From an uncultured virus (IMG/VR IMGVR_UViG_3300025286_000007) (lineage: Duplodnaviria; Heunggongvirae; Uroviricota; Caudoviricetes): a stretch of DNA of 64,000 bases. Each line of letters opens with the position of its first letter. Positions within the stretch are counted from its first letter, which is position 1. The stretch lies in the IMG/VR virus record IMGVR_UViG_3300025286_000007; one strand, given 5' to 3'. A model generated the notes under the pieces. The model was not told where the DNA came from, ran no database searches, and worked only from the letters and a program-made list of their open reading frames with translations. The position numbers and the translations under genes are program-made. This document shows positions 1-60,611 of this stretch, one piece after another.

Positions 1-14
1 ACGGCACGGGCGTT

Positions 15-1124
15 GTGGTCGGTCACACGGCGCAGGTTTCTAGTGGTGGCGGTGGGGACGCTCCAGAGGTGCAGATCCTGGGCACGGCTGGGCCGGACTC
101 CTCCTTGCAGATAGGCAGGTGGAGTGCCAACGCATCAGGCCCATCGTTGAGGTTCGTCAAGAGCCGTGACCCAGCAATCGCTGATGGCTCTTTTGCCATC
201 GTCGCTGATGGTGACGATTGTGGGCAAATCGCCTTCCTCGCTGATGATGGCACCGATTTTGGCTCTACCGTAGCGGACATTCTGGCTGAGATAGACGGGA
301 CGCCAGGGGAGAATGACACCCCTGGACGTATACTTTTCCGCACAACTTCGGATGGGCAGCAGGGAGTCACCGAGCGGATGCGTCTCGACAACGGCGGTGT
401 CCTGCTACTTAACGATACAGCCACAGCAGACGTAACCACCGGTATCTGCATCAACCAGGCAAGCGCCGACGATGGGATGCTCGTCTTTAAGTCTTCCGAT
501 ATCAACCATGCGTTCACCGATTTAGTAGAAGCCGATACCGCAGGGATCATTACTAAGGCAAACGCAGCCGAGGGCGGCATCCTCATTGATGGATTCACTG
601 AGGTTGGTGCCCGGGACGCGGTGCATATCCGCGGATCGGTTACCAGCGAAGATACCTCGAAATCCATATCTAGGTTCGGCCCGATTGTTCTCAGCGGTGC
701 TTATCTGGACGGTAATACTAGAGGGGATTTGCCTAGCGATGCCAATATCGTGGCTATCAGGAACAACGGTACGACTAGGTTTCTATTCGATGCTGAGGGG
801 GACAGCCATCAGGATGTTGGGACGGCCTGGACAAATTTCGATGACTACGATGACGTTGGTCTACTCCACGCGTTGGCTGCAGGGGTCAGCCAAGAAGTTG
901 ATCCTATTCGTGCCCAGTTCGGCCAGTTGCTCGATGATCACCGAGAGTTTCTGGAGGAGCATAAGCTCGTCACCTTTAACGATGACGGCCATCATTTCAT
1001 TAACTGGAGTCGCACCAACATGCTGGTCATCGGCGCAGTTCGGCAACAGGCAGAATATCTTGCGGAGTTAGGGGCAAAGCTTGAAATTGCAGAGCGGAAG
1101 CTTGCAGCCCTGGGAGTAGCATAA
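15..1124 (+). CDS. Tail fibre/spike protein, C-terminal part (probably 5'-truncated by the window edge)
   Basis: G/D/T-rich beta-repeat sequence typical of phage fibres (GRILFRTTSDG..TERMRLD), coiled-coil C-terminus; visibly GC-richer than the rest of the window. Confidence 0.65.
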   Translation: MVGHTAQVSSGGGGDAPEVQILGTAGPDSSLQIGRWSANASGPSLRFVKSRDPAIADGSFAIVADGDDCGQIAFLADDGTDFGSTVADILAEIDGTPGENDTPGRILFRTTSDGQQGVTERMRLDNGGVLLLNDTATADVTTGICINQASADDGMLVFKSSDINHAFTDLVEADTAGIITKANAAEGGILIDGFTEVGARDAVHIRGSVTSEDTSKSISRFGPIVLSGAYLDGNTRGDLPSDANIVAIRNNGTTRFLFDAEGDSHQDVGTAWTNFDDYDDVGLLHALAAGVSQEVDPIRAQFGQLLDDHREFLEEHKLVTFNDDGHHFINWSRTNMLVIGAVRQQAEYLAELGAKLEIAERKLAALGVA

Positions 1125-1766: not shown

Positions 1767-1782
1767 GTAATGGAGAATATAA

Positions 1783-2910
1783 ATGGCAGGAATAGGCTGG
1801 GAATTTAAAAAAATATTTAATTGGGATGGCGTAGGCACATCTAGTAGTGATTATACTGATGTAACTTTCGAGGCACAAACTCCAGCAGGAACACCCTTTA
1901 CACTTTTTAATAGTAGTGCCCATTATCTCTATTTAGGACATAGCCAAAAATTTGATATGGCTATGTTTGATGTAGATACGGCTGGAAGTTTGGGTGCCTT
2001 AACATGGGAATATAGTAATGGTAGTAATTTCACAGAATTTATACCAGCCTCAGCTAGATTTGCTATAGACCCAGATGATAATGAGGGTACGCAATACGCA
2101 TTCGATAAAGATGGGGCTGAAATATTTCCAATGAATTTGTTAGAGGATTGGGCAACATTAACTATAAATAGTTCAAACATATATTGGATTAGAGTTACAG
2201 CAGCTAGTGTGTCAACTGCACCTACAATTAAAAGAATTCAATGTAGACCTTTTGCGATATATACTACGAGTAAACTTGTCTTTGAATTATTGCAATTAAA
2301 AAATGTAACAGGAACTACGGATTTTACAACTAGTACGATTCCTTCTAAAGAAACAGTAGATTTCTTTATCAATGAATCGCAAGCTTATATTGATATGAAT
2401 ACTCGCAAATCGTGGAGACCAAATATAGTCTATGATGAGTATCACGAATTTAATTTGAATGGATTTAAACTTGAGATGCCAAATGCTCAACGTGTTCTAA
2501 GTGTAAAAGTTTGGAATGGAGCAAGTTGGGACGCAAAAGAACAAGGAAGAGCGAAAGATTTTTTCTTAGTACCAACTACAGGAATGGTTCAATTTAGTCG
2601 GTACTTTCTTTTACCAGCTAGATTTACAAGTTACAATGCACCAGTGTGGAGATGGGGTGGGGGAGAATTTACAATGCCGGTTAAAGTAACGTATTTAGCT
2701 GGACGAGATATTAATACAGATATTGTACAGGCTGGTATAATTCAGGAAGTCTGTAAAAAGATGGTTGCTATAGATGTGATGCGAAATGCAGATTTCGGAA
2801 ACACAGTTGTTAGTGGTATGGATAGAGTTAGTATGGAATCTAGAATTCAAGGCTGGCAGGAAGAAATTGAGGATAGATTGGACTTCTTGACAGCGTTTGA
2901 GGTATTTTAA
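1783..2910 (+). CDS. Virion structural protein, probable head-tail adaptor/connector with an N-terminal beta domain
   Basis: GGAG RBS; C-terminal half resembles connector proteins (FINESQAYID..., VKVTYLAG, IQEVCKKMVA); sits at the start of the tail module. Confidence 0.55.
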   Translation: MAGIGWEFKKIFNWDGVGTSSSDYTDVTFEAQTPAGTPFTLFNSSAHYLYLGHSQKFDMAMFDVDTAGSLGALTWEYSNGSNFTEFIPASARFAIDPDDNEGTQYAFDKDGAEIFPMNLLEDWATLTINSSNIYWIRVTAASVSTAPTIKRIQCRPFAIYTTSKLVFELLQLKNVTGTTDFTTSTIPSKETVDFFINESQAYIDMNTRKSWRPNIVYDEYHEFNLNGFKLEMPNAQRVLSVKVWNGASWDAKEQGRAKDFFLVPTTGMVQFSRYFLLPARFTSYNAPVWRWGGGEFTMPVKVTYLAGRDINTDIVQAGIIQEVCKKMVAIDVMRNADFGNTVVSGMDRVSMESRIQGWQEEIEDRLDFLTAFEVF

Positions 2911-30616: not shown

Positions 30617-32329
30617 ATGAAATTATCAGATTATCTACCTGAAGTTCCAGCATTTGCTCAACAAATGAGTGCTTTAAGTAATCAAATTAACCAGTTTCAG
30701 TTAATGAAAGCTGCTGGGGATACAGGACAAGCCCCAACAATTGGTCTAGACCATGTAGTTAATACATGGGTTCGTCATCAAATGGCGTATAGACAGCAAT
30801 TGGTTATGGACTTACAGACTATTTGCATGACGGTAGAGGAAATACGCTCTCCATTAAGTCATATAACGAATGAAGTATTCAGGAGAGGCTTACAATGGAA
30901 ACCTTTGATAGCCGATCCAGATGAAAGTCAACTAGAAGTTTTTAGTAAATTTCTAAAAGACTGTAATGTCTTTGATCAAAGTTTGGAAGAAGTTATGAGA
31001 CAATTTCACTTTGATGTAAATTCTATAGATGATGGTTTTATATATCTTGCTAAAGAATATTATAGTTCTGGAGATGGTTTATTACGGTCTAAGGTTAAAG
31101 AGATTCGTAGACTGAACCCATCTTTGGTAGAATTTGACTTAGATGTTTCCGGTTTGCCTAAGAACGCTCATTTCCTTTGTCCTATACATAGAGAGCAAGT
31201 TAAAGATACGCCTCAAAGCTGTGATCAACACGGCTGTGTTAGACAATGTCAACCAGTTATGTATAAATACTATCATCGTAATCAACAAATTTATTTATTT
31301 GATTCTGAAGTAATCCATATGACTAAGTTCTCTCCTTCCGAAACGTATGGCTGGTCGCCAATATTAACAATCTTTGAAAAAGCACTAACGTTGATTGGAA
31401 TGGATAAGAATCTTTATAGGTATTTCTTTGAGAGAAAGATGCCAGCTTCTATGGTTATGGTAACGACTGATGATCCTGAGAGTTTGAGAAGGGAACGAGC
31501 TAACATAGCGGCTCAGACACGGCTTGACCCTAACTATATTCCTATGATTGCTGTTTCAGCTAGGAATCAGCGAGGTAGAGTAGATATGGTACGCCTCTTC
31601 CACACTCTACAAGAAATGGACTATCTACCAGTTAGGGAGGAAATTAGGGAAAGGGTTGCAGCTATGTGGGGAGTTACTCCTGCATGGCAAGGCGCACCAG
31701 ATGCTTTTGGTGGGTTGTCTAGTCAAACACAGCAACTAGTCGTTATGAGTCGTGTGGTTGAAGCAGATCAACGATTATTTCATGAAAAAGTATTTCCTGT
31801 TCTATTAGACGCTTTTGGAATTACAGATTGGGCCTTAGTTCTTCCTAATCCAGAGGAGAAGGCTGAAGCAACTAAAATTAGTTTTGCTCAACAGAAGGTT
31901 CAAGTTGCTAATGCGTTAGCTCAATTAGGATTTACTATTACCTTAAAACAACAAGGAAGTGATTTAGGAGACGTAGATTTTTCTATAAGTGGTGAATATG
32001 TACCTACGGCTCAGATGCAAGGAGAACAAATGGGTATGCAAATTGCACAACAAGAACAGCAATTCCAGATGCAACAGCAGCAACAGGAACAACAACAGCA
32101 GCAAATAGCGGCTGCTCAAGAGCAAGCTAATCAAACAGGTGAACCTGTGGAGGTTGATGTTGGCGGTGGTGGCGAAGGCGGTGGTGGTGAAGCTGAGATA
32201 CAGGCCATGCTTAAGGCTGATGATGATTCCCATAACTCAGATAAACTTTCTGAATCTGAAAAGATGCGAAAACTTAGTGACGCCTTAATGCATGAGGAAA
32301 TGTATCCTGATCAAGACGAGGAAGAATAA
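30617..32329 (+). CDS. Portal protein (HK97-like) with a Cys/His insertion and a Q/E-rich tail
   Basis: EVIH...YGWSPI, YRYFFERKMP, DYL..REEI..RVAAMWGVTP. Confidence 0.8.
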   Translation: MKLSDYLPEVPAFAQQMSALSNQINQFQLMKAAGDTGQAPTIGLDHVVNTWVRHQMAYRQQLVMDLQTICMTVEEIRSPLSHITNEVFRRGLQWKPLIADPDESQLEVFSKFLKDCNVFDQSLEEVMRQFHFDVNSIDDGFIYLAKEYYSSGDGLLRSKVKEIRRLNPSLVEFDLDVSGLPKNAHFLCPIHREQVKDTPQSCDQHGCVRQCQPVMYKYYHRNQQIYLFDSEVIHMTKFSPSETYGWSPILTIFEKALTLIGMDKNLYRYFFERKMPASMVMVTTDDPESLRRERANIAAQTRLDPNYIPMIAVSARNQRGRVDMVRLFHTLQEMDYLPVREEIRERVAAMWGVTPAWQGAPDAFGGLSSQTQQLVVMSRVVEADQRLFHEKVFPVLLDAFGITDWALVLPNPEEKAEATKISFAQQKVQVANALAQLGFTITLKQQGSDLGDVDFSISGEYVPTAQMQGEQMGMQIAQQEQQFQMQQQQQEQQQQQIAAAQEQANQTGEPVEVDVGGGGEGGGGEAEIQAMLKADDDSHNSDKLSESEKMRKLSDALMHEEMYPDQDEEE

Positions 32330-35300
32330 TGACTACTTTTAATGAGGAGGTAAGTGGAGAATATCAACAAGAAGAAAAACCAATTGTAACCATTACTGAC
32401 GAGAGTCTACAACTTCCTAAAGATCAACGTTTATATATTAATTCTAATGAGCTTCGTGACTATGCTGGAATGGGGTTGGCAATCTATGAAGGGCCAAGAA
32501 AAGGAGAGTATGTAGATAGAAGTTTATTGGATGATAAAGGGAAACCTACAAAAGTGCCAATTGACTATGAGCAATATCATTATGTAGATACTCGTAGGCA
32601 TTGGCTTAAACAGCATATCAACCAATATCCACCTAAAGCTACTGGGCCTCTTATATTTAGAAATCAAGAAACAGGAAGTATGGAGACTATTGACTTAGAG
32701 ACGTTACATCCTGTTCCTAATCATACTCCTAATTTATATCGGTATACTCAAGATGGTAAAGTAGTAGAGCTTCCTGCTGGTATCGCTCATTATGATAGTG
32801 AAGGTAATAAATTATCTCCCCATAAAGATGAACGTGATCGCCCTATTATTATTCAACAGACTCAAGCTCTTATTCTAAATGCTTATCGTGATCAGAAAGT
32901 ACCTAACAATGCCACCAATGTGTTTGTGGCTGGAAATGAAACTTCTGAAATACAAGCAATCTATCGGAATGTACAAGGAAAACAACAGGTAATCTTTTCT
33001 CCAGAAGAGGCTAAGAGAAGAAAAGATGTTCATTGGAAGAACCAACTTGAGGCTAGGAAAAGTGCAGATGACTTAATAGATACCTTATCTGCGGATATTG
33101 ACAATATAGATACTTGGTCGGAAAATGATCAAGTTATTTTATTAATTGGTCGGATGGGTTTTCGTCATGGAGGGGATACTATTAGTTTTCTTGCAGCCAA
33201 TGAGGAAGAGCAAAAAAAGAATGGGGCAACAAGCCCTCAAAATACAGGAGAACGTACTGGAATAGGTGCATCATCCTTAATAGCTAAGGAAGTATCTATT
33301 CAAGACGATGGTTCCGTAAGGTTCCAGTTTTTAGGGAAGAGTAAAATTCCTCACGATCATGTATCAACTGATCCCTTAGTTAAACGAATTGTACAACAGG
33401 CGTTGCGTGGGAAACAGTCAGGAGAGCAACTCTTTCCAAGAGCTAACACGAAACAAAATCTAAATAGATTACGAAAACTTACTGGCAATAAGCGCATGGA
33501 AATAAAAGACATTAGAACTTATATTGGAACTTCTATTGCTAGGGATTTAGTTAAACAAGAAATCGCTAATCGTGGAGGTAGGACTACGACTACGGAGGAG
33601 TTTAAGGAAGCATTAAAACGAATTTCTATAGAAGTAGGTAAAGCATTAGGACATAAAAGTGGGAGTAGAGATAAAGACACTGGAGAAATGATGTATGAAG
33701 ATATAGGAACAACGGCTCTTAAGTATTATATTGATCCTGTAGTTTGGCAAGATTTAGCTCCCGAAGGTACAGTCGAAAAACTTATGAAAATGGTAAAGAA
33801 TTTACAGACTCTCTCTAAAACTCTTCCTCCAAATGCAATATACTCTTCAACTGAAGCCCCTCCTAAAGGAGCTATGACATTTGTAACAGAAGAGCGAGAA
33901 GCAGAGTATTGGTTACAACCTACAGAAGTCTTTCCTCAAACTCCAAATGTACAAGAGGTAATTGATGCTAATCCACAAGCACAACAGATTTTACAGGACT
34001 TAGGACAACAAGGAACACCGTATGTAGTAGGTGGTGGTGTACGAGATATTTTGCTAGGTAAACCTAGTAAAGATATAGATATTGAAATGCATGGAGTTCC
34101 TATGGATAAATTAGGCCAGCTTATGGAAAAACATGGGGGGAAATCAGAACAAGTAGGTAAACAGTTTGGAGTGTTTAAAGTGGGTGATGTAGATGTCTCA
34201 TTACCTAGAACAGAGACTAAAACAGGGACTAAACATACAGATTTTGATGTTCAAGTACATACATCATTGCCATTAAAACAAGCAGCACGTAGAAGGGACT
34301 TTACTATGAATGCTTTGATGTATGATGTAAAGAATCATAAGGTCATAGACTTTTTTGGTGGGCATGATGATATCGTAGCTAAAAAAATTAAACATGTTGA
34401 CGATAAAACCTTTGTAGAAGACCCATTGCGTGTTTATAGAGCGGCACAATTTGCAGGAAGATTTGGTTTTTCAATTGATGATTCGACCAAAAAGTTAGCT
34501 CAGTCTATGGATTTATCAGATTTACCAAAAGAAAGAATTTTTGATGAGATGTCAAAACTGTTATTAAAATCTCCATCACCTTCGGTAGGTTTGCAAGCGT
34601 TAGAAGATATGGGAGTTTTTAATCAACAAATGACAGAATTAAAGGATTTACGAGATACAATACAACGAGATGATTTTCACGCTGAAGGAGATGTATTTAC
34701 TCATACAAAAATGGTTATCGATGAAGCCGCACGAGTTAGTAAGCGATTTGAACGAGAAAAAGATCGACATATCATTATGTTATCTGCCTTACTCCATGAT
34801 ATAGGTAAGCCAGCGACTACTAATGAACGTGGTTTATCGCATGGACATTCCGAAGCTGGCACGGAACCCGCGAGGCAATTTTTAGAGAGATTAACTACAG
34901 ATAAAGAAATTATAGATACTGTTGTACAGATAGTAGAACTTCATTTAGTTCCATTACAGTACCATCATCAGAGAGAAGAACTAAAAGATTCCACTTTAAG
35001 AAGGATGATTAATAAACACGGAACGCATTTCCTTAATCTACTATCAGCCGTTTCCGAAGCAGATGCTCTTGGTAGACGCCATAGACAACCTGATGGTAGT
35101 ACAATAAAACCTACGAATGAGGCTAATGAATGGTTTAGAGCGAATATTAAACGAGTGTCTGAAGAAAGTGGTAGTACACCAGAAGGAAGAATTAAACCGT
35201 TAGTGACTGGTAATGACCTACTTGATTTAGGTTTTGTACAAGGCAGACGAATTGGGGAAGTACTACAAGATATTAAGAGACAGCAAGAAGAAGGTAAATT

Positions 35301-35829
35301 GACGGATAAGAAAGAAGCCCTTGATTATATTCAGGGTATCCATAAATCTTATGTCAGTGAATATTTCTTGAAGGCTAAAGGTAAATATAAGGGACGAACA
35401 GGTGGAATAACACCTGATTGGACAATGAAATTACCCGGTGAGGAAAGAGATATAGATGAATGGACAGAAGCTCGTAGAAAGAAAGCAGAGGAACGCCAGT
35501 GGGGAATTAAACCTGTAGGTGGACAGCCGATGGCTAAAACATGGATAGGTTCACTAGCTGATAAAGGATTTATATATCCGTTAATTAAGCAGGTTCTAGG
35601 TTCTCAGATGTGGTTTGCGCAAGATGGAATTGACTATATAGCTAATTTAGGAACGAATGAAGATGAGTTAGTCACTTCTGTAGATAAAGCAATATTTACC
35701 TATAATAAACCTAGTGTATCTTATGCGCCTTCTGGACGAAATAATCAGAATACAAAGAGGAAAAGTTCAGGTAAGCAAGGAGAGAGATATCAAGGAGATA
35801 TTATAGACGATGAGGAGGACGATTATTAA
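32329..35829 (+). CDS. Multidomain fusion: DNA topoisomerase IB + CCA-adding tRNA nucleotidyltransferase with HD domain
   Basis: TopoIB pentad GFR, LGK, KDIRT, LGH, KYYIDP (about 32890-33760); VVGGGVRD, DID, RRDFTMNAL, EDPLR, HAEGDVFTH, LLHDIGK, TGNDL (about 33970-35340). Confidence 0.88.
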   Translation: MTTFNEEVSGEYQQEEKPIVTITDESLQLPKDQRLYINSNELRDYAGMGLAIYEGPRKGEYVDRSLLDDKGKPTKVPIDYEQYHYVDTRRHWLKQHINQYPPKATGPLIFRNQETGSMETIDLETLHPVPNHTPNLYRYTQDGKVVELPAGIAHYDSEGNKLSPHKDERDRPIIIQQTQALILNAYRDQKVPNNATNVFVAGNETSEIQAIYRNVQGKQQVIFSPEEAKRRKDVHWKNQLEARKSADDLIDTLSADIDNIDTWSENDQVILLIGRMGFRHGGDTISFLAANEEEQKKNGATSPQNTGERTGIGASSLIAKEVSIQDDGSVRFQFLGKSKIPHDHVSTDPLVKRIVQQALRGKQSGEQLFPRANTKQNLNRLRKLTGNKRMEIKDIRTYIGTSIARDLVKQEIANRGGRTTTTEEFKEALKRISIEVGKALGHKSGSRDKDTGEMMYEDIGTTALKYYIDPVVWQDLAPEGTVEKLMKMVKNLQTLSKTLPPNAIYSSTEAPPKGAMTFVTEEREAEYWLQPTEVFPQTPNVQEVIDANPQAQQILQDLGQQGTPYVVGGGVRDILLGKPSKDIDIEMHGVPMDKLGQLMEKHGGKSEQVGKQFGVFKVGDVDVSLPRTETKTGTKHTDFDVQVHTSLPLKQAARRRDFTMNALMYDVKNHKVIDFFGGHDDIVAKKIKHVDDKTFVEDPLRVYRAAQFAGRFGFSIDDSTKKLAQSMDLSDLPKERIFDEMSKLLLKSPSPSVGLQALEDMGVFNQQMTELKDLRDTIQRDDFHAEGDVFTHTKMVIDEAARVSKRFEREKDRHIIMLSALLHDIGKPATTNERGLSHGHSEAGTEPARQFLERLTTDKEIIDTVVQIVELHLVPLQYHHQREELKDSTLRRMINKHGTHFLNLLSAVSEADALGRRHRQPDGSTIKPTNEANEWFRANIKRVSEESGSTPEGRIKPLVTGNDLLDLGFVQGRRIGEVLQDIKRQQEEGKLTDKKEALDYIQGIHKSYVSEYFLKAKGKYKGRTGGITPDWTMKLPGEERDIDEWTEARRKKAEERQWGIKPVGGQPMAKTWIGSLADKGFIYPLIKQVLGSQMWFAQDGIDYIANLGTNEDELVTSVDKAIFTYNKPSVSYAPSGRNNQNTKRKSSGKQGERYQGDIIDDEEDDY

Positions 35830-49698: not shown

Positions 49699-50118
49699 TT
49701 ATGCTCTATTGGAGTCTTCTTTATCCTTATTGGAATAAGTTTCTCCCTTAAACTCATCTTTCAATCTGTATTGAGGTGTCTGTGCATGACAGTTAGGACA
49801 TAAGAGTCTTAGATTATTTAATCTATTATCCTCATTGTTTCCATTAATGTGATCTAACTGTAACGGAATGGTTTCTCCTACCCAGAACACACGTAAACAA
49901 ATAGCACATTGTGGTTCCAAATAACCTTCATTTAGTAGACGTACCTTAAGTTTATCTGATTGCATAGGCACTTTATTATTCAAGTACTCTTTCATCTCTC
50001 TAGTTTTCAGTAACATCTGAGGATAGATGTCTAGCTCACTAGTCTTCATGGCTTTCTGAACATCCCATTTAGTTCTAAATGGTCGTACACCCTCTGCTAT
50101 AAATCGTTTACGAATCAT
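49699..50118 (-). CDS. HNH endonuclease
   Basis: CAIC..LQLDHING...DNRL.NLRLLCPNCH. Confidence 0.9.
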   Translation of the reverse strand: MIRKRFIAEGVRPFRTKWDVQKAMKTSELDIYPQMLLKTREMKEYLNNKVPMQSDKLKVRLLNEGYLEPQCAICLRVFWVGETIPLQLDHINGNNEDNRLNNLRLLCPNCHAQTPQYRLKDEFKGETYSNKDKEDSNRA

Positions 50119-50627: not shown

Positions 50628-50657
50628 TTGACAAAGTATCAAGTTTTGTGGTAAACT
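50628..50657 (+). promoter_or_regulatory. Early sigma70-type promoter
   Basis: TTGACA-N18-TAAACT. Confidence 0.7.
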
Positions 50658-52877: not shown

Positions 52878-52910
52878 GGGGGGGATATAAAAATCCCCCC
52901 CCTATTTTTT
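52878..52910 (+). terminator. Intrinsic terminator-like hairpin directly before the tRNA
   Basis: GGGGGGGAT/ATCCCCCCC stem plus TATTTTTT. Confidence 0.65.
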
Positions 52911-52913
52911 AAA

Positions 52914-52997
52914 GCCTCTGTGGTGGAACGGTAGACACGCTTGGTTTAAGCCCAAGTGCCAAAAGGCGTGAAGGTTCGATTCCTTCCAGAGGCACCA
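52914..52997 (+). tRNA. tRNA-Leu (anticodon TAA) with encoded CCA
   Basis: Acceptor GCCTCTG/CAGAGGC; anticodon arm CTTGG-TTTAAGC-CCAAG; long variable arm; GGTTCGATTCC T-arm; ACCA end. Confidence 0.95.
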
Positions 52998-53707: not shown

Positions 53708-53929
53708 ATGAGACTTGTTTTAGACCCAAGAAGAAAAGAGGATACGGTACTAGGGTTCGAGTGGCTTGAGCCAGTGAGTTATGGATATGACAAAGAGGGC
53801 ATACTTCAAACCATACTGTGTAAAGGACTCATGTCTGACAATTCAGTAAGTCTGATTGATATCCAAGAGCCAGAACTTTCAGAAGACTTAATGATGAATT
53901 ACACTGTATGGGATAACACTAATGTGTAA
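53708..53929 (+). CDS. Hypothetical protein
   Basis: GAGGAG RBS. Confidence 0.55.
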   Translation: MRLVLDPRRKEDTVLGFEWLEPVSYGYDKEGILQTILCKGLMSDNSVSLIDIQEPELSEDLMMNYTVWDNTNV

Positions 53930-54587
53930 GCCTATAGTTAGAAAGATAACAAAGAAGGAAGCAGAATCATTACTTCATCCCTATCATTATTTGACAAAGG
54001 AAAGCAAAGGTTTTAGGACAGGCTATAATTATGGTGCATTCATTGATGATGTTTTACAGGCTGTCTGTATATTTCATAATCCTTCTGTTCCTGAGTTGGT
54101 GAAGGGGTGCTTCGGTTTGACACGAACCGATCAACGTGGTATACTTGAACTTGGGCGATTAGTAAAACATCCGTCTGCCAACGGCAGTTTAATACTGTCT
54201 CAATTTGTAGCAATGGCTATGAAAGAGGTACGTAAGGAACTGGACGTTAGAGCTATTCTTAGCTATGCAGATTCTCGCTACCACGCAGGGTATATATATC
54301 AATCTTTAAACTTTATGTATTATGGACTCACAGACCCTAAAAGCGATTGGTGGTTTGAACAAGAGGATGGCACTTTTCTTAAACATACTAGAGGCAAGGT
54401 AAAAGGTAGTAAAGGAGAATGGAGACACCGACCAAGAAAACATAGATATTTATTAGTTTTTGACAAGACTCTTCAAACGAAGTGGCTTCCAAAAGTCTAT
54501 CCTAAAAAAGATAATAAGGAGTATACGTATTATGATTGCAGTAAAGAACAAGTTGATTATCGAATCAAAATATCTAGCACAGTTTGA
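53922..54587 (+). CDS. Mom-like (GNAT-fold) DNA modification protein
   Basis: YHYL, ELGRL, ILSYAD..H.GYIYQ.LNF.Y.G, RPRKHRY. Confidence 0.75.
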   Translation: MCKPIVRKITKKEAESLLHPYHYLTKESKGFRTGYNYGAFIDDVLQAVCIFHNPSVPELVKGCFGLTRTDQRGILELGRLVKHPSANGSLILSQFVAMAMKEVRKELDVRAILSYADSRYHAGYIYQSLNFMYYGLTDPKSDWWFEQEDGTFLKHTRGKVKGSKGEWRHRPRKHRYLLVFDKTLQTKWLPKVYPKKDNKEYTYYDCSKEQVDYRIKISSTV

Positions 54588-55373: not shown

Positions 55374-55377
55374 GGAT

Positions 55378-55440: not shown

Positions 55441-55458
55441 GGAGGTGTAGATATGTAA
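55441..55458 (+). other. Start-stop minigene (GGAGGT RBS, ATG-TAA), copy 1
   Basis: GGAGGTGTAGAT-ATG-TAA. Confidence 0.55.
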
Positions 55459-55510
55459 TTATCGAGGATGTTCAATATCAAAGTATGTTTAGTACATAAA
55501 GGAGTAAATC

Positions 55511-56896: not shown

Positions 56897-57172
56897 ATGG
56901 ATACTAAGGACGCTGAACAATTGATGTTACCTTTTTTCCCTCATGATCCGTACTTAGCAGTACAGTCATTATCTAAAGCGATGTATGATTATGCGGGAGT
57001 GCTGTTACCTAATTGGATATGGGAAACGATAGTACAACAATACTTCACGTTCCTACACCTTCAAGTACTGCACATGAAACAAGAACATTTACGTGAGCAA
57101 ATAATATCTGAAGACCCTTTTCACATGAATACTATACCCTATCTTATACCCGACCATCCTCTATCGAATTAG
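56897..57172 (+). CDS. Hypothetical protein
   Basis: Weak AGGA RBS; fills the gap. Confidence 0.45.
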   Translation: MDTKDAEQLMLPFFPHDPYLAVQSLSKAMYDYAGVLLPNWIWETIVQQYFTFLHLQVLHMKQEHLREQIISEDPFHMNTIPYLIPDHPLSN

Positions 57173-57184
57173 AGCAGTGGGGAT

Positions 57185-57213
57185 TTGCCACAAACGTCGA
57201 AACATGCTAAACT
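57185..57213 (+). promoter_or_regulatory. Early sigma70-type promoter
   Basis: GGGGAT-TTGCCA-N17-TAAACT. Confidence 0.65.
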
Positions 57214-57242
57214 AATGAAGCGGTCGAAAAACGGCATTTTGT

Positions 57243-57259
57243 GGAGGTGTGAGATGTAA
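57243..57259 (+). other. Start-stop minigene (GGAGGT RBS, ATG-TAA), copy 2
   Basis: GGAGGTGTGAG-ATG-TAA. Confidence 0.55.
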
Positions 57260-57280
57260 TTATATATTCGTAATAAACCA

Positions 57281-57704
57281 GTATTGAGAGATAAGCTACT
57301 AGGCTAAGAACGTTATTAGAATAGTCGTAAAATCTAAACCTTGACGAAGGCAAGGATAAATGCTTACTCTCTAATAGCTAATACGTGAAAGCATAGCCTC
57401 CCTGCATAATCGAATATTATTTAGGTGCAGGGATAGGTTAGGGGGATGTATAGCTTGTGGATTGTATTATACCTATATCCATACTGATTTTACTACTGTT
57501 GTATCCAGTGTACCGTGCATACGTTGTATCACAAAGTACGAAGGACGGATAAATCTAGAACGCAGAACTGTTAATGTCTTAGGCAATTCTAGGTTCACGT
57601 TTACTTGCGTACCGCTTGTTGACCGTCAATCCGTCTGTATCCAGAGAGCCAGTATGAACAGTCCCTGTGCGGTTGTCAACCACAGGCTATGCATTCCCTG
57701 CTAA
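57281..57704 (+). ncRNA. Large structured non-coding RNA of unknown class
   Basis: 20-bp closing helix 57441-57460/57680-57699 with nested helices, plus two upstream hairpin domains. Confidence 0.65.
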
Positions 57705-57732
57705 TAAAATATAAAAGAGGAAACATCAACAC

Positions 57733-57987
57733 ATGGAAACTGAAGCAGTATTTATTGCACAGCCAAAGGGAACATGGACACACGACAACATTGTTATAGA
57801 GCATGATGGGTCTAGTGCCTACACAGTATATATTACATGGAAAGGTACTCAAGGGGGTTGGGAAGAGGCCAATACAACAGTCTGTAAAGTTCCACACCAG
57901 ATGGCTATGATATCCTTATTATCCGACCTAACTGGTAAGCGTCCTTTATTTACTACTCTTGCTGGTGAATCTATTTTATACCATTAG
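57733..57987 (+). CDS. Hypothetical protein, paralog of 39497-39781
   Basis: Shared motifs. Confidence 0.7.
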   Translation: METEAVFIAQPKGTWTHDNIVIEHDGSSAYTVYITWKGTQGGWEEANTTVCKVPHQMAMISLLSDLTGKRPLFTTLAGESILYH

Positions 57988-59813: not shown

Positions 59814-60142
59814 GCAGAAATGTGCTAGACCAAGCTCTTGTAGTTAGTGGACACCATTCTATAAATATTGGAGCGTATACTCAGGATATGCTTGGACAGT
59901 TAGATGGTGACCAGAGGAGGTGTTTAGGACTATTGGAAGCCATAGATTTTGGATGCTTTGAACGAACTTCAGCTAAAGACCCTAAAGGTATCTATTGCAT
60001 AGACTTAGGAATTAATACTACAGAGGATGTAGAGCAGTATCTTATAAAGCATATGACAACAGTGAATAGCTTACCTGTTGCTCCTTCTATGCTTGGCTTC
60101 TTCTCAGGAACCTTTGAGTTTTTATCTAACGGAGTTAAGTAA
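59798..60142 (+). CDS. Hypothetical protein
   Basis: AGGAG RBS. Confidence 0.6.
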   Translation: MATELSRNVLDQALVVSGHHSINIGAYTQDMLGQLDGDQRRCLGLLEAIDFGCFERTSAKDPKGIYCIDLGINTTEDVEQYLIKHMTTVNSLPVAPSMLGFFSGTFEFLSNGVK

Positions 60143-60585
60143 TGTCATTAAATTGGGATATAACAGCAGTACAAAATACTAAAGAATTATGTTGGTTTTC
60201 CTCTGAAGAGGAATCGGAAAAGGTAGAACTTCATCCTGTAACCCACACATTGATATGGGCTACAATGCTTATAGGTTTCAATAAGATCACAGGAAAGAAT
60301 TATAAAGACTTTTATCGTAGACTAATAGAGTTTGAAATTATTGTAGGGTATGGTATGCTTGATTATTTTGTAGATGGGAAAAGGGAAAGTAGGATGCCTT
60401 TTCTACAGGAAGTACAAAATCATATAGGTTTATTGACTAATGCTACTGTAATGGATAATAGAAAATGGACTAAAAATTTGGCTAGATTAGTTCATGAAAA
60501 GGCTGCCGATAGAATACGTTTTATGGCTGAACAAGAAACAGAGCAGACCAATGTAGAATCAGCCCTCTATAGGGTTGTTCTGTAA
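60142..60585 (+). CDS. Hypothetical phage protein
   Basis: MSLNWD..IT.KN..FY.R..HIGL.TN. Confidence 0.7.
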   Translation: MSLNWDITAVQNTKELCWFSSEEESEKVELHPVTHTLIWATMLIGFNKITGKNYKDFYRRLIEFEIIVGYGMLDYFVDGKRESRMPFLQEVQNHIGLLTNATVMDNRKWTKNLARLVHEKAADRIRFMAEQETEQTNVESALYRVVL

Positions 60586-60611
60586 GATGACAGTATAACT
60601 GCACTAGGGAT

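What the first reader, a model, noticed from the sequence alone, without database searches (positions are those of the whole stretch)
57281..57704. Large structured non-coding RNA (~420 nt) under a strong early promoter
Seen: the only long gap in a gene-dense region. 57441-57460 (GGGGGATGTATAGCTTGTGG) pairs over 20 bp with 57680-57699 (CCACAGGCTATGCATTCCCT), and all four deviations are G-U wobbles, which points to RNA-level selection. Nested inside: an internal bubble, CATACTG/CAGTATG (57480/57650), GACGGAT/ATCCGTC (57544/57629), AATCTAGAA/TTCTAGGTT (57552/57587) and a GTGCATAC/GTATCAC hairpin; TGTATCCAG occurs twice (57500, 57636). Upstream are two more domains (57281-57296/57362-57376 enclosing CCTTG/CAAGG; 57394-57406/57426-57440). 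I see no tmRNA, RNase P, SRP or intron signatures. Inference: a new phage ncRNA; the closing stem plus bubble loosely recalls 6S RNA, an RNA polymerase decoy.
Basis: partly seen in the sequence, partly recalled or inferred. Interest (0 to 1): 0.8.

Follow-up and report, generated by a model that had tools for sequence, protein, structure and literature searches.

The report
Conserved structured RNA leader in marine phages
The long gap between two phage genes carries a folded, non-coding RNA element behind an early promoter that matches no RNA family in the Rfam library; two related uncultured marine phages also have it, and its function is unknown.

Summary
The 560-nt gap 57173-57732 has no credible gene. 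The 20-bp stem 57441-60/57680-99 with four G-U pairs is real and is the only such long-range helix in the 64-kb window.

Two diverged homologues turned up in marine metagenome contigs, L023 and L025/L026. All three lineages share one layout:
- a sigma-70-like early promoter;
- a strong Shine-Dalgarno site with a start-stop mini-ORF (ATGTAA or ATGTGA);
- a multi-helix RNA closed by long-range stems;
- the ribosome-binding site (RBS) of the next gene.

ORF 57462-57704 is not conserved, does not look coding, and has no protein relatives.

Of 35 consensus pairs in the core, 4 show compensatory changes, 5 change through G-U and 1 is broken. Rfam gives nothing, and there is no 6S likeness.

Verdict: a new structured phage RNA, physically a 5' leader of an early operon. 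Whether it acts in cis or as a stand-alone RNA is open. The evidence is thin: three lineages and no RNA data.

The parts
57176..57213 (+). Early promoter: GGGATTTGCCA with -35 TTGCCA (57185-90), 17-nt spacer with TG (57205-06), -10 TAAACT (57208-13). The start of transcription near 57220 is inferred.
   Evidence: 9 of 12 consensus matches, TG present; six exact + strand copies of GGATTTGMCA at 55374, 57181, 60608, 61934, 62325, 62578. L023 and L026 have an equivalent TTGACA / TG-extended -10 promoter at the same place.
57223..57259 (+). Leader: small hairpin GUCG-AAAAA-CGGC (57223-35), strong Shine-Dalgarno GGAGGTG (57243-49), start-stop mini-ORF ATG TAA (57254-59).
   Evidence: Read. The same SD plus ATGTAA sits behind promoter 55374 in this window. 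L023 has GGAGGTG...ATGTGA and L026 has GGGGGTG...ATGTGA, so the stop codon differs while the start-stop is kept.
57286..57371 (+). Variable 5' domain: helix 57286-96/57362-71 enclosing small hairpins, including CCUU-GACG-AAGG (57339-50).
Evidence: MFE. Not alignable with L023 or L026, which carry a different domain here (CCUCA/UGAGG).
57375..57395 (+). Conserved hairpin motif: stem UAGCU/AGC(A)UA with 10-nt loop AAUACGUGAA.
   Evidence: Pattern GCTAANNNNTNAAAGC is present in the window-type loci, in L023/L029/L040/L043, in L025/L026 and in L044. Stems read: GUGGCU/AGCCGC (L023), GUGGCU/AGCCAU (L026), UGUAGCU/AGCUACG (L044). The change G-C to A-U is compensatory.
57394..57440 (+). Hairpin CCUCCCUGCA...UGCAGGGAUAGG, specific to the window type.
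   Evidence: MFE. Absent from L023 and L026 (37-column gap). L044 has a different long hairpin at this place.
57441..57460 (+). 5' arm of the closing stem (P1 GGGGGA plus P2 UGUAUAGCUUGUGG).
   Evidence: L023 and L026 have their own complementary arms at the same place in the fold: outer GGGGGGGUGGAC/GUCCAC(C or U)CCCCC, and inner UCCUUCCUACA/UGUAGGA(U)AGGA (L023) or CCA(U)CCUACAG/CUGUAGGUGG (L026).
57494..57510 (+). Hairpin Pb: 5-bp stem with 7-nt loop UUGUAUC.
   Evidence: All 15 cells are paired. The third pair reads C-G (window), U-A (L023) and U-G (L026).
57515..57532 (+). Hairpin Pc: GUG(C)AUAC-GUU-GUAUCAC, an invariant 18-mer.
   Evidence: Identical in all three lineages. It therefore says nothing about pairing (helix 2).
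57533..57617 (+). Central domain Pd: stacked helices (CAA/UUG, GUA/UAC, AGG/CUU, CUAGAA/UUCUAG, GC/GC) around the conserved loop ACUGUUAAUG and GGCAA.
   Evidence: 18 pairs, all cells paired. Compensatory changes at 57533/57617, 57538/57610 and 57544/57604. G-U to G-C changes at 57543/57605 and 57554/57593. The same domain appears in L023's own MFE. It is not in the window's unconstrained MFE, which prefers GACGGAU/AUCCGUC.
57636..57666 (+). Second UGUAUCCAG copy and helix Pe (57643-47/57662-66).
   Evidence: Pe is AGUGA/UCACU in L023 and L026. The window has an A-C mismatch at 57645/57664, the one broken cell.
57680..57699 (+). 3' arm of the closing stem.
57462..57704 (+). 80-codon ORF (open over 108 codons from 57378). 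Judged not to be a gene.
57716..57735 (+). RBS AGAGGAAA (57716-23) and ATG (57733) of the first gene downstream (84 aa).
   Evidence: codon score +0.30. No terminator-like site on the + strand between 57220 and 57733.

Best explanation
Window 57220-57706 (+ strand) encodes a conserved, highly folded, non-coding RNA that forms the 5' leader of an early transcription unit of an uncultured marine phage.

Shown:
- It lies directly behind one of six near-identical sigma-70-type early promoters.
- It begins with a small hairpin, a strong Shine-Dalgarno site and a start-stop mini-ORF.
- It continues as a multi-domain fold whose core (57441-57699) is closed by a 20-bp stem, and it ends 17-33 nt before the RBS and start codon of the next gene with no terminator between.
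- The same layout, with a core 69-79% identical, is present in two other phage lineages.
- Helices are kept through compensatory and G-U changes.
- No reading frame is conserved.

Inferred:
- Host RNA polymerase makes it first in infection, as the head of the polycistronic early mRNA.
- A ribosome loading at the start-stop, together with the compact closed fold, protects the 5' end and sets how the downstream early genes are expressed (stability, or access to the first RBS).

My odds: a functional + strand RNA element, about 0.85. A leader acting mainly in cis at operon level, about 0.45. Mainly a self-standing RNA that binds a host or phage factor, about 0.35 (first rival).
For: 1. Not coding.
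- Codon-usage score is -0.31 for 57462-57704, against +0.04 to +0.30 for 21 of 21 small neighbouring genes.
- In L026 the same frame stops right after CIRCITK. L023 and L026 have stops in all three frames, and the indels are 1-2 nt long.
- Substitutions fall evenly on codon positions: 16/21/17 and 10/15/13.
- No PHROG hit, and only a sub-threshold Pfam hit.
- Only 3 weak hits, to repetitive proteins of 933-1173 aa, among 1.84 billion representatives. No candidate in the search for homologous proteins.

2. Homologues.
- A pattern scan of metagenome contigs gave L023, L025/L026 and L024, which is window-type.
- Local identity is 81% over 159 nt and 83.5% over 97 nt. A covariance model of the core scores 196-207 bits in the three lineages.
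- The core is better kept than the shared early protein: 39% aa identity between window and L023, 69% between L023 and L026.

3. Structure.
- 35 consensus pairs are 99% paired across 105 cells.
- Of the 10 pairs that vary, 4 are compensatory, 5 change on one side through G-U, and 1 is broken.
- Only 13 of 500 shuffles reach 4 compensatory pairs. Slid controls give 0-1 such pairs and 27-38% pairing.
- Closing stems exist in all three lineages with different sequences. Duplex z-scores are -6.2 and -3.2 in the window and L023.

4. Strand. Five G-U cells against one A-C cell in the core, and four G-U with no A-C in the closing stem. All lineages put a promoter upstream on this strand.

5. Position. 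Promoter, then element, then RBS, in 3 of 3 lineages. L044 has a short version carrying the same hairpin motif upstream of the same gene family.
Against: - Only three lineages, so covariation is thin. The consensus structure was derived from these same sequences, which inflates the counts.
- The MFE z-scores of the homologues are not significant: L023 -0.52, L026 +0.21. The L026 closing duplex is not better than shuffles (z -1.4, 24 of 300 reach it).
- The consensus model costs the window 13 kcal/mol against its own MFE: -123.1 versus -136.5.
- Against a gene-specific cis role: the first downstream gene differs between the window (84 aa) and L023/L026 (160 aa). SD sequestration is seen only in L023. 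No terminators in the operon point to antitermination.
- A conserved leader of 450-770 nt would be very large for a bacterial cis regulator (my own knowledge).
Confidence: 0.5

Rival explanations
1. The folded core is a self-standing functional RNA. It is made early as the head of the transcript and may be cut out. It would bind or sequester a host or phage factor as a decoy, sponge or scaffold, or act as a ribozyme or a large ornate RNA assembly. Its place in the leader would only serve early, strong expression.
For: - The core sequence is far better kept than the neighbouring protein.
- Long invariant unpaired stretches (ACUGUUAAUG, GGCAA, ACCGCU, ACCGU, UGUAUCCAG) suggest tertiary contacts or a binding partner.
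- Peripheral domains vary and hairpins carry insertions, including an extra 3' domain with GAAA loops in L026. This is how large functional RNAs usually evolve (my own knowledge).
- The downstream gene differs between lineages.
- TGTATC occurs 3 times in 519 nt, against 17 in 64 kb of + strand. It occurs 5 times each in L023 and L026.
- Size is 450-770 nt. A tRNA-Leu lies 2-4 kb upstream in the window and in L043. This loosely recalls ROOL and GOLLD, which are phage RNAs near tRNA islands (passages read).
Against: - No terminator or other defined 3' end, so processing would have to be assumed.
- The UGUAUC copies sit in mixed contexts (loop, stem strand, junction), so a repeated binding site is not established.
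- L044 keeps only the 5' hairpin motif and still sits as a leader of the same gene family.
- No Rfam family, ROOL, GOLLD, OLE and 6S included, scores even weakly.
Confidence: 0.35
2. A DNA-level element: a miniature inverted-repeat transposon, a replication origin or another protein-binding region with repeated TGTATC sites. The 20-bp arms would then be terminal inverted repeats.
For: - Inverted 20-nt arms 220 nt apart (one search does not list them as one pair; they were read).
- Repeated TGTATC.
- The related phage L006 lacks the element at the corresponding place, and the element sits in different gene neighbourhoods.
Against: - All 4 arm mismatches are G-U on one strand. By my own estimate that has a chance of about 0.001 to 0.01.
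- Compensatory changes occur inside the core.
- There is a single copy in the window and in each relative searched. No flanking direct repeat is seen.
- The spacing of TGTATC is irregular.
- A promoter always lies upstream on the same strand.
- Cumulative GC skew shows no turn here.
Confidence: 0.07
3. ORF 57462-57704 (or the 108-codon open frame from 57378) encodes a small Cys-rich protein with CxxC pairs.
For: - A 108-codon open frame is unusual in AT-rich non-coding DNA.
- The translation carries CIAC, CIRC and CIPC.
Against: - TTG start with no RBS at proper spacing.
- Codon score -0.31, outside the range of 21 of 21 neighbouring genes.
- The frame is broken in both homologues, and indels are 1-2 nt long.
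- No third-position bias.
- No relatives.
Confidence: 0.03
4. Decayed remnant of a gene or mobile element with no present function. The stems would be chance.
For: - L006 lacks the element.
- The homologues' MFE z-scores are ordinary.
Against: - The core is 69-82% identical across lineages whose shared early protein is only 39-69% identical.
- An invariant 18-mer and other invariant blocks.
- Pairing is kept in 104 of 105 cells.
Confidence: 0.05

Closest known systems
ROOL and GOLLD (large phage or prophage RNAs of unknown function)
   Same: - Hundreds of nucleotides long, many helices, phage-encoded, function unknown.
- A conserved part plus a variable part. [quoted passage not shown]
- Here the 3' core is conserved, the 5' domain varies, and a tRNA-Leu lies 2-4 kb upstream.
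   Different: - No sequence or structure match to either Rfam model, even at E<=10.
- This element sits as a 5' leader between an early promoter and a gene, and carries a start-stop mini-ORF.
- It is not adjacent to the tRNA.
6S RNA
   Same: A long closing stem, and possible abundance from a strong promoter.
   Different: - The core is multi-branched with at least four internal helices, not one irregular hairpin with a central bubble.
- The element is about 480 nt, against about 180-200 nt for 6S (recalled).
- No 6S family scores.
Structured 5' leaders of phage early operons (lambda N leader, HK022 put RNAs; recalled, not looked up)
   Same: Promoter-proximal, cis-located RNA at the head of an early operon. 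The position does not depend on which gene follows.
   Different: - Several times larger.
- No sequence relation was tested or is known.
- No terminators in the operon that would call for antitermination.
Promoter-containing regulatory cassettes of T4-type phages (PeSLs)
   Same: Repeated early-promoter cassettes lie at the borders of variable gene blocks. Here six near-identical promoters are present, the element lies in different neighbourhoods in different phages, and promoter 57181 shares its leader with promoter 55374 (73% over 64 nt).
   Different: PeSLs are short promoter-terminator motifs (search listing and opening lines of the abstracts of PMC2839356 and PMC4122927 only). They are not 450-nt conserved folds.
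Start-stop mini-ORFs
   Same: An SD followed by ATG and then a stop. Such sites bind ribosomes and can tune expression in E. coli (passages of bioRxiv 10.1101/520783).
   Different: Those sites lie inside genes. Here the start-stop is about 35 nt from the inferred 5' end of a leader and is conserved with either TAA or TGA.

Membership tests
6S RNA | Match to a 6S covariance model | tested here: not met
   Rfam 15 at gathering threshold over the whole window finds only the tRNA. At E<=10 on 57100-57800 it finds nothing.
6S RNA | A single long interrupted hairpin with a large central bubble, about 180-200 nt | tested here: not met
   The MFE and consensus show a multi-branched core of about 260 nt plus upstream domains. 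The 6S size is recalled.
6S RNA | Binds the sigma-70 holoenzyme and templates pRNA | not testable with these tools
   Needs biochemistry.
Group I / group II intron | Match to the intron covariance models | tested here: not met
   No match at E<=10 (window) or E<=5 (L023, L026).
Group I / group II intron | Interrupts a gene whose exons join to one frame | tested here: not met
   The flanks are complete separate genes. The element holds its own promoter. L023 and L026 have different flanking genes.
ROOL / GOLLD / OLE / raiA / HEARO large RNAs | Match to the family model | tested here: not met
   The tool searched all 4227 Rfam 15 models; that these five families are among them is recalled for all but ROOL, GOLLD and OLE.
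Riboswitch or other cis-regulatory leader | Lies in the 5' untranslated region of the regulated gene | tested here: met
   Promoter, element, then RBS in 3 of 3 lineages, with no terminator between.
Riboswitch or other cis-regulatory leader | Expression platform: a terminator, or an SD-sequestering helix that alternates with the aptamer fold | tested here: inconclusive
   In L023, CUCCUU just 5' of P1 pairs with the SD GAGGAG in the MFE. There is no equivalent in the window or L026. The window has an alternative partner for the 3' arm, 57387-99 with 57684-96, 92% complementary.
Riboswitch or other cis-regulatory leader | The same kind of gene downstream across members | tested here: not met
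   84-aa gene in the window, 160-aa gene in L023 and L026. The window's homologue of that gene lies 2.4 kb further on, before the next promoter of the family at 60608.
Miniature inverted-repeat transposon | Terminal inverted repeats, target-site duplication, several copies | tested here: not met
   The arms are present, but no flanking direct repeat is seen. There is one copy in the window and in each locus searched. The mismatches are G-U only.
Protein-coding gene | A reading frame conserved among homologues, with coding-type substitution and codon usage | tested here: not met

The most novel reading that the evidence does not exclude
The element is the first seen member of a new class of large, autonomously folding phage RNAs. 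It would be produced in the first minutes of infection from the head of the early transcript. Its conserved loops, including the duplicated UGUAUCCAGUG-ACC modules, would capture a host protein or complex, or it would assemble or catalyse on its own as the ornate RNAs ROOL and GOLLD do. The start-stop ribosome site would be part of the device.
Probability: 0.3. Interest if true: 0.8.

Novelty: new variant of a known kind. Interest (0 to 1): 0.6.

Why it matters
Conserved RNAs of several hundred nucleotides with complex folds are few. As far as I recall, most characterised ones are ribozymes, ribonucleoprotein cores or striking assemblies.

This one has three features that make it worth a look:
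- It sits at the very start of the early programme of a group of uncultured marine phages.
- It is kept better than the proteins around it.
- It comes with a conserved ribosome-loading start-stop, a combination I know no precedent for. This rests on recall and on two literature searches, neither aimed at this combination.

If it acts in cis, it would be an unusually large bacterial-type leader. If it acts in trans, it would be a new early phage RNA acting on the host. Either way it is a defined, testable RNA of about 480 nt.

Tried and rejected
Expression data
- No RNA holder was listed among the 18 sequencing runs. The one RNA run laid (X18) gave 0 contigs. This says nothing about expression.

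Searches for more homologues
- blastn of the window element and of the L026 element against 50,697 phage records: no match.
They returned only the four identical window-type contigs and the L023-type contig. The first gapped pattern missed the L023-type contig that a later pattern found.
- The genome contigs 18-mer scan gave 6 loci. Five share nothing beyond the 18-mer; L034 aligns over 31 nt at 84% (E 0.001). The count is near what I estimate by chance, and I discarded all six.
- nhmmer, blastn and the covariance model R1 on 8 more distant relatives' loci (L044, L050-L056), and R1 on five whole records: no core homologue. The best extra hit had E 0.5.
- L023 and L026 records are not held for whole-record search.

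Comparisons that did not hold up
- L006's own 363-nt gap is not notably structured (z -0.88).
- The 76-aa ORF of L006 that I took by eye for a homologue of the window's 84-aa gene (shared LT.KRPLF) gives no BLASTP alignment. The claim that the flanking genes are adjacent in L006 therefore rests only on the 91-aa homologue (22% identity, E 2e-4).

Readings considered and dropped
- tRNA-like or tmRNA-like: ARAGORN finds nothing in the elements.
- Antitermination: no convincing + strand terminator in 57.7-60.6 kb.
- UGUAUC as loop-displayed repeats: the contexts are mixed.

Tools not available
- The window's own assembly is not held.

Full report
**What the window is.** The 64-kb window is a lytic-type phage genome. 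PHROG matches identify a DnaB-like helicase, primase, family A DNA polymerase, UvsX-like recombinase, ribonucleotide reductase, terminase, portal, major head protein and tail fibres. There is one tRNA-Leu(UAA) at 52914-52997. Four IMG/VR contigs and one metagenome contig are 99.95-100% identical to the window around the finding. The best cultured relatives of the polymerase are at most 27% identical among the 15 records listed. The DNA-holding runs are labelled marine metagenomes.

**The observation.**
- Plus-strand genes end at 57172 and resume at 57733.
- The 20-bp pairing 57441-60/57680-99 is exact as described. It has 16 Watson-Crick pairs and 4 G-U pairs on the + strand, which would be A-C on the other strand.
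- It is the only helix of that quality (arms 50-400 nt apart) in the whole window on either strand. The duplex is 6 sd better than shuffles.
For the entire gap the score is only -1.59. The span was chosen on the stem, so I give these scores limited weight.
- The other helices and the two TGTATCCAG copies are present.

**Promoter and leader.**
- The site TTGCCA-17-(TG)c-TAAACT at 57185-57213 belongs to a family. GGATTTGMCA occurs exactly six times, always on the + strand, at 55374, 57181, 60608, 61934, 62325 and 62578. With one mismatch allowed it occurs 22 times, against 7.7 expected. Each exact copy is followed 17-18 nt later by a TG-extended -10 box. Four of the six are followed within about 40-60 nt by a gene.
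- The promoters at 57181 and 55374 share a leader with GGAGGTG, 4-5 nt, then ATG TAA.
- A start of transcription near 57220 is inferred.
- No + strand terminator lies between there and 57733.

**Coding is excluded as far as sequence can show.**
- The frame is open for 108 codons, which is unusual.
- Its codon score is -0.31, while all 21 small neighbouring genes score +0.04 to +0.30.
- It has no PHROG match and only a sub-threshold Pfam hit.
- A full HMMER pass over 1.84 billion representatives gives 3 weak hits, to repetitive proteins of 933-1173 aa. The word-indexed search finds no candidate.
- In the homologues the frame is broken (next section).

**Homologues.**
- Flanking-gene searches gave only identical contigs and one distant relative, L006. 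L006 has no trace of the element.
- Laying contigs of runs that hold only part of the stretch showed two diverged pieces. One covers 57288-57395 with 21 differences. The other covers the core, and its unaligned ends still contained recognisable blocks.
- A pattern built on two such blocks found four metagenome loci: L024 (window type), L023 (the same contig as IMG/VR L029, L040 and L043) and L025 = L026.
- L043 shares several early genes with the window at 42-70% amino-acid identity, and also the tRNA-Leu. These are related phages.
- Over the 183-nt core the window is 69% identical to L023 and 79% to L026. L023 and L026 are 82% identical to each other. The one shared neighbouring protein is 39% (window against L023) and 69% (L023 against L026) identical.
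- All three lineages have the same order of parts: TTGACA / TG-extended -10 promoter, hairpin, GG(A/G)GGTG, ATG plus stop (TAA in the window, TGA in the others), folded region, RBS, gene.
- The gene that follows differs. It is an 84-aa gene here and a 160-aa gene in L023 and L026. The window's homologue of that gene (60142-60585) lies 2.4 kb downstream, before the next promoter of the family at 60608.
- A fourth lineage, L044, has only a leader of about 180 nt upstream of its copy of that gene. It carries the hairpin motif GCUAA....U.AAAGC with a covarying stem.
- Relative to the window's ORF, L026 has a stop directly after CIRCITK. L023 and L026 have stops in all three frames, and the indels are 1 or 2 nt. 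Substitutions show no codon-position bias.

**Structure.** I aligned the core piecewise between invariant anchors and took the RNAalifold consensus. I then repeated the count on an independent MAFFT alignment, A4.
- 35 pairs in 8 helices are 99% paired over 105 cells.
- 25 pairs never vary. Of the 10 that vary, 4 change on both sides and stay paired, 5 change on one side through G-U, and 1 has a broken cell.
  - Both sides changed: 57496/57508, 57533/57617, 57538/57610, 57544/57604.
  - Broken: A-C in the window at 57645/57664.
- 13 of 500 shuffles reach 4 compensatory pairs. Sliding the partners by 1-3 columns gives 0-1 such pairs and 27-38% pairing.
- A fifth compensatory pair, 57545/57600, depends on gap placement and was left out.
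- The central domain also appears in L023's own MFE.
- The closing helices exist in each lineage with different sequences. The window has one 20-bp stem. L023 and L026 have an outer G-rich/C-rich stem and an inner 11-bp stem with one bulge, with an extra domain of about 75 nt between their 3' strands. L023 and L026 differ in the inner stem by an A-U to U-A exchange.
- One run contig changes 57342 and 57347 together, keeping a 4-bp hairpin.

**Weaknesses of the structural case.**
- There are three sequences only.
- The structure was derived from the same sequences that were counted.
- Homologue MFE z-scores are -0.52 and +0.21.
- The L026 closing duplex is not better than shuffles.
- The window's own MFE prefers GACGGAU/AUCCGUC and CAUACUG/CAGUAUG, which the homologues cannot form. 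It is 13 kcal/mol better than the consensus model.

**What it is not.**
- Rfam 15 (4227 families) gives nothing at gathering score, nothing at E<=10 on the gap, and nothing at E<=5 within the L023 or L026 elements. ARAGORN finds no tRNA- or tmRNA-like part.
- The fold is not 6S-like.
- It is not an intron: the flanks are separate genes and it has its own promoter.
- A transposon or origin reading is disfavoured by the one-strand G-U pattern, by internal covariation and by the single copy.

**How it most likely works.**
- Shown: a conserved + strand fold in the 5' leader of an early unit, preceded by a conserved SD and start-stop.
- Inferred: it is transcribed first by host polymerase. A ribosome parks at the start-stop; start-stops do bind ribosomes and tune expression in E. 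coli (passages of bioRxiv 10.1101/520783). The closed fold then protects or tunes the early mRNA.
- I put about 0.45 on a mainly cis, operon-level role. I put about 0.35 on a self-standing RNA that binds a partner. The points for the second reading are the strong sequence conservation, the invariant loops, the variable periphery, the changing downstream gene and the TGTATC enrichment.
- The closest known things in kind are ROOL and GOLLD, which are large phage RNAs near tRNA islands with unknown function (passages of bioRxiv 10.1101/2024.12.08.627333). Membership was tested and not met.
- The six-fold promoter family, and the element's different neighbourhoods in different phages, recall the promoter cassettes of T4-type phages (search listing and opening lines of the abstracts only).

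**Verdict.** This is a real RNA element that matches no Rfam family and nothing in the literature I searched, with modest but consistent comparative support. Its function is unknown, and no expression data are available.

Noticed in passing
window 55374, 57181, 60608, 61934, 62325, 62578 (+ strand): A family of six near-identical early promoters: GGGATTTGMCA, 17-18 nt, then a TG-extended TAAACT/TATACT/TATGCT box. Each is followed by an A-rich conserved leader (AAGTCGAAAAACGAAG-like). Further TG-extended promoter-like sites lie at 50628, 54117, 58133, 60332 and 63174.
   Followed up: partly
window 55441-55460 and 57243-57259; L023 about 1303-1319; L026 about 1778-1794 (- strand): A strong Shine-Dalgarno site followed by a start codon and an immediate stop (ATGTAA or ATGTGA) near the 5' end of early leaders. 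It occurs twice in the window and is conserved in two other phage lineages with a different stop codon.
   Followed up: partly
window 57387-57399 with 57684-57696: A second possible partner for the 3' arm of the closing stem, 12 of 13 complementary. It would compete with 57447-57456, so two conformations are possible. No clear equivalent in L023 or L026.
   Followed up: partly
L026 1290 down to about 1160 (- strand): L026 has a further domain of about 120 nt after the shared element. It is closed by GUAGCAAGG/CCUUGCUAC, carries two GAAA loops and another UUGUAUC, and is followed by about 110 nt more before the gene.
   Followed up: no
L023 1414-1419 with about 1755-1760: CUCCUU just 5' of the outer stem pairs with the Shine-Dalgarno GAGGAG of the downstream gene in the MFE. 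This could be an on/off link between the fold and translation, seen in this lineage only.
   Followed up: partly
window 32329-35829: A 1166-aa ORF whose middle (residues 565-926) matches tRNA nucleotidyltransferase (CCA-adding enzyme), fused to large unknown regions. The phage also carries tRNA-Leu(UAA) at 52914-52997, preceded by the only convincing + strand terminator of the region at 52878-52901.
   Followed up: no
window 1-1000: The first kilobase has 55.7% G+C, against 32-48% in every other kilobase bin of the window. It lies in a tail-fibre-like ORF that runs off the window's start.
   Followed up: no
L006 5341-5460 and 6320-6682: The related phage L006 has two non-coding gaps that share an AAAATAGTG.TAAGCC stretch. 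The larger gap (363 nt) is not notably structured (z -0.88) and has no Rfam match.
   Followed up: partly
window 57355-57339 (- strand): A terminator-like hairpin with a T run on the - strand inside the 5' domain. No - strand gene is nearby.
   Followed up: no
window 53922-54587 and 49699-50118 (-): A Mom-like DNA modification protein (PHROG 1384, E 3.5e-29) and an HNH endonuclease on the opposite strand, both in the early region.
   Followed up: no
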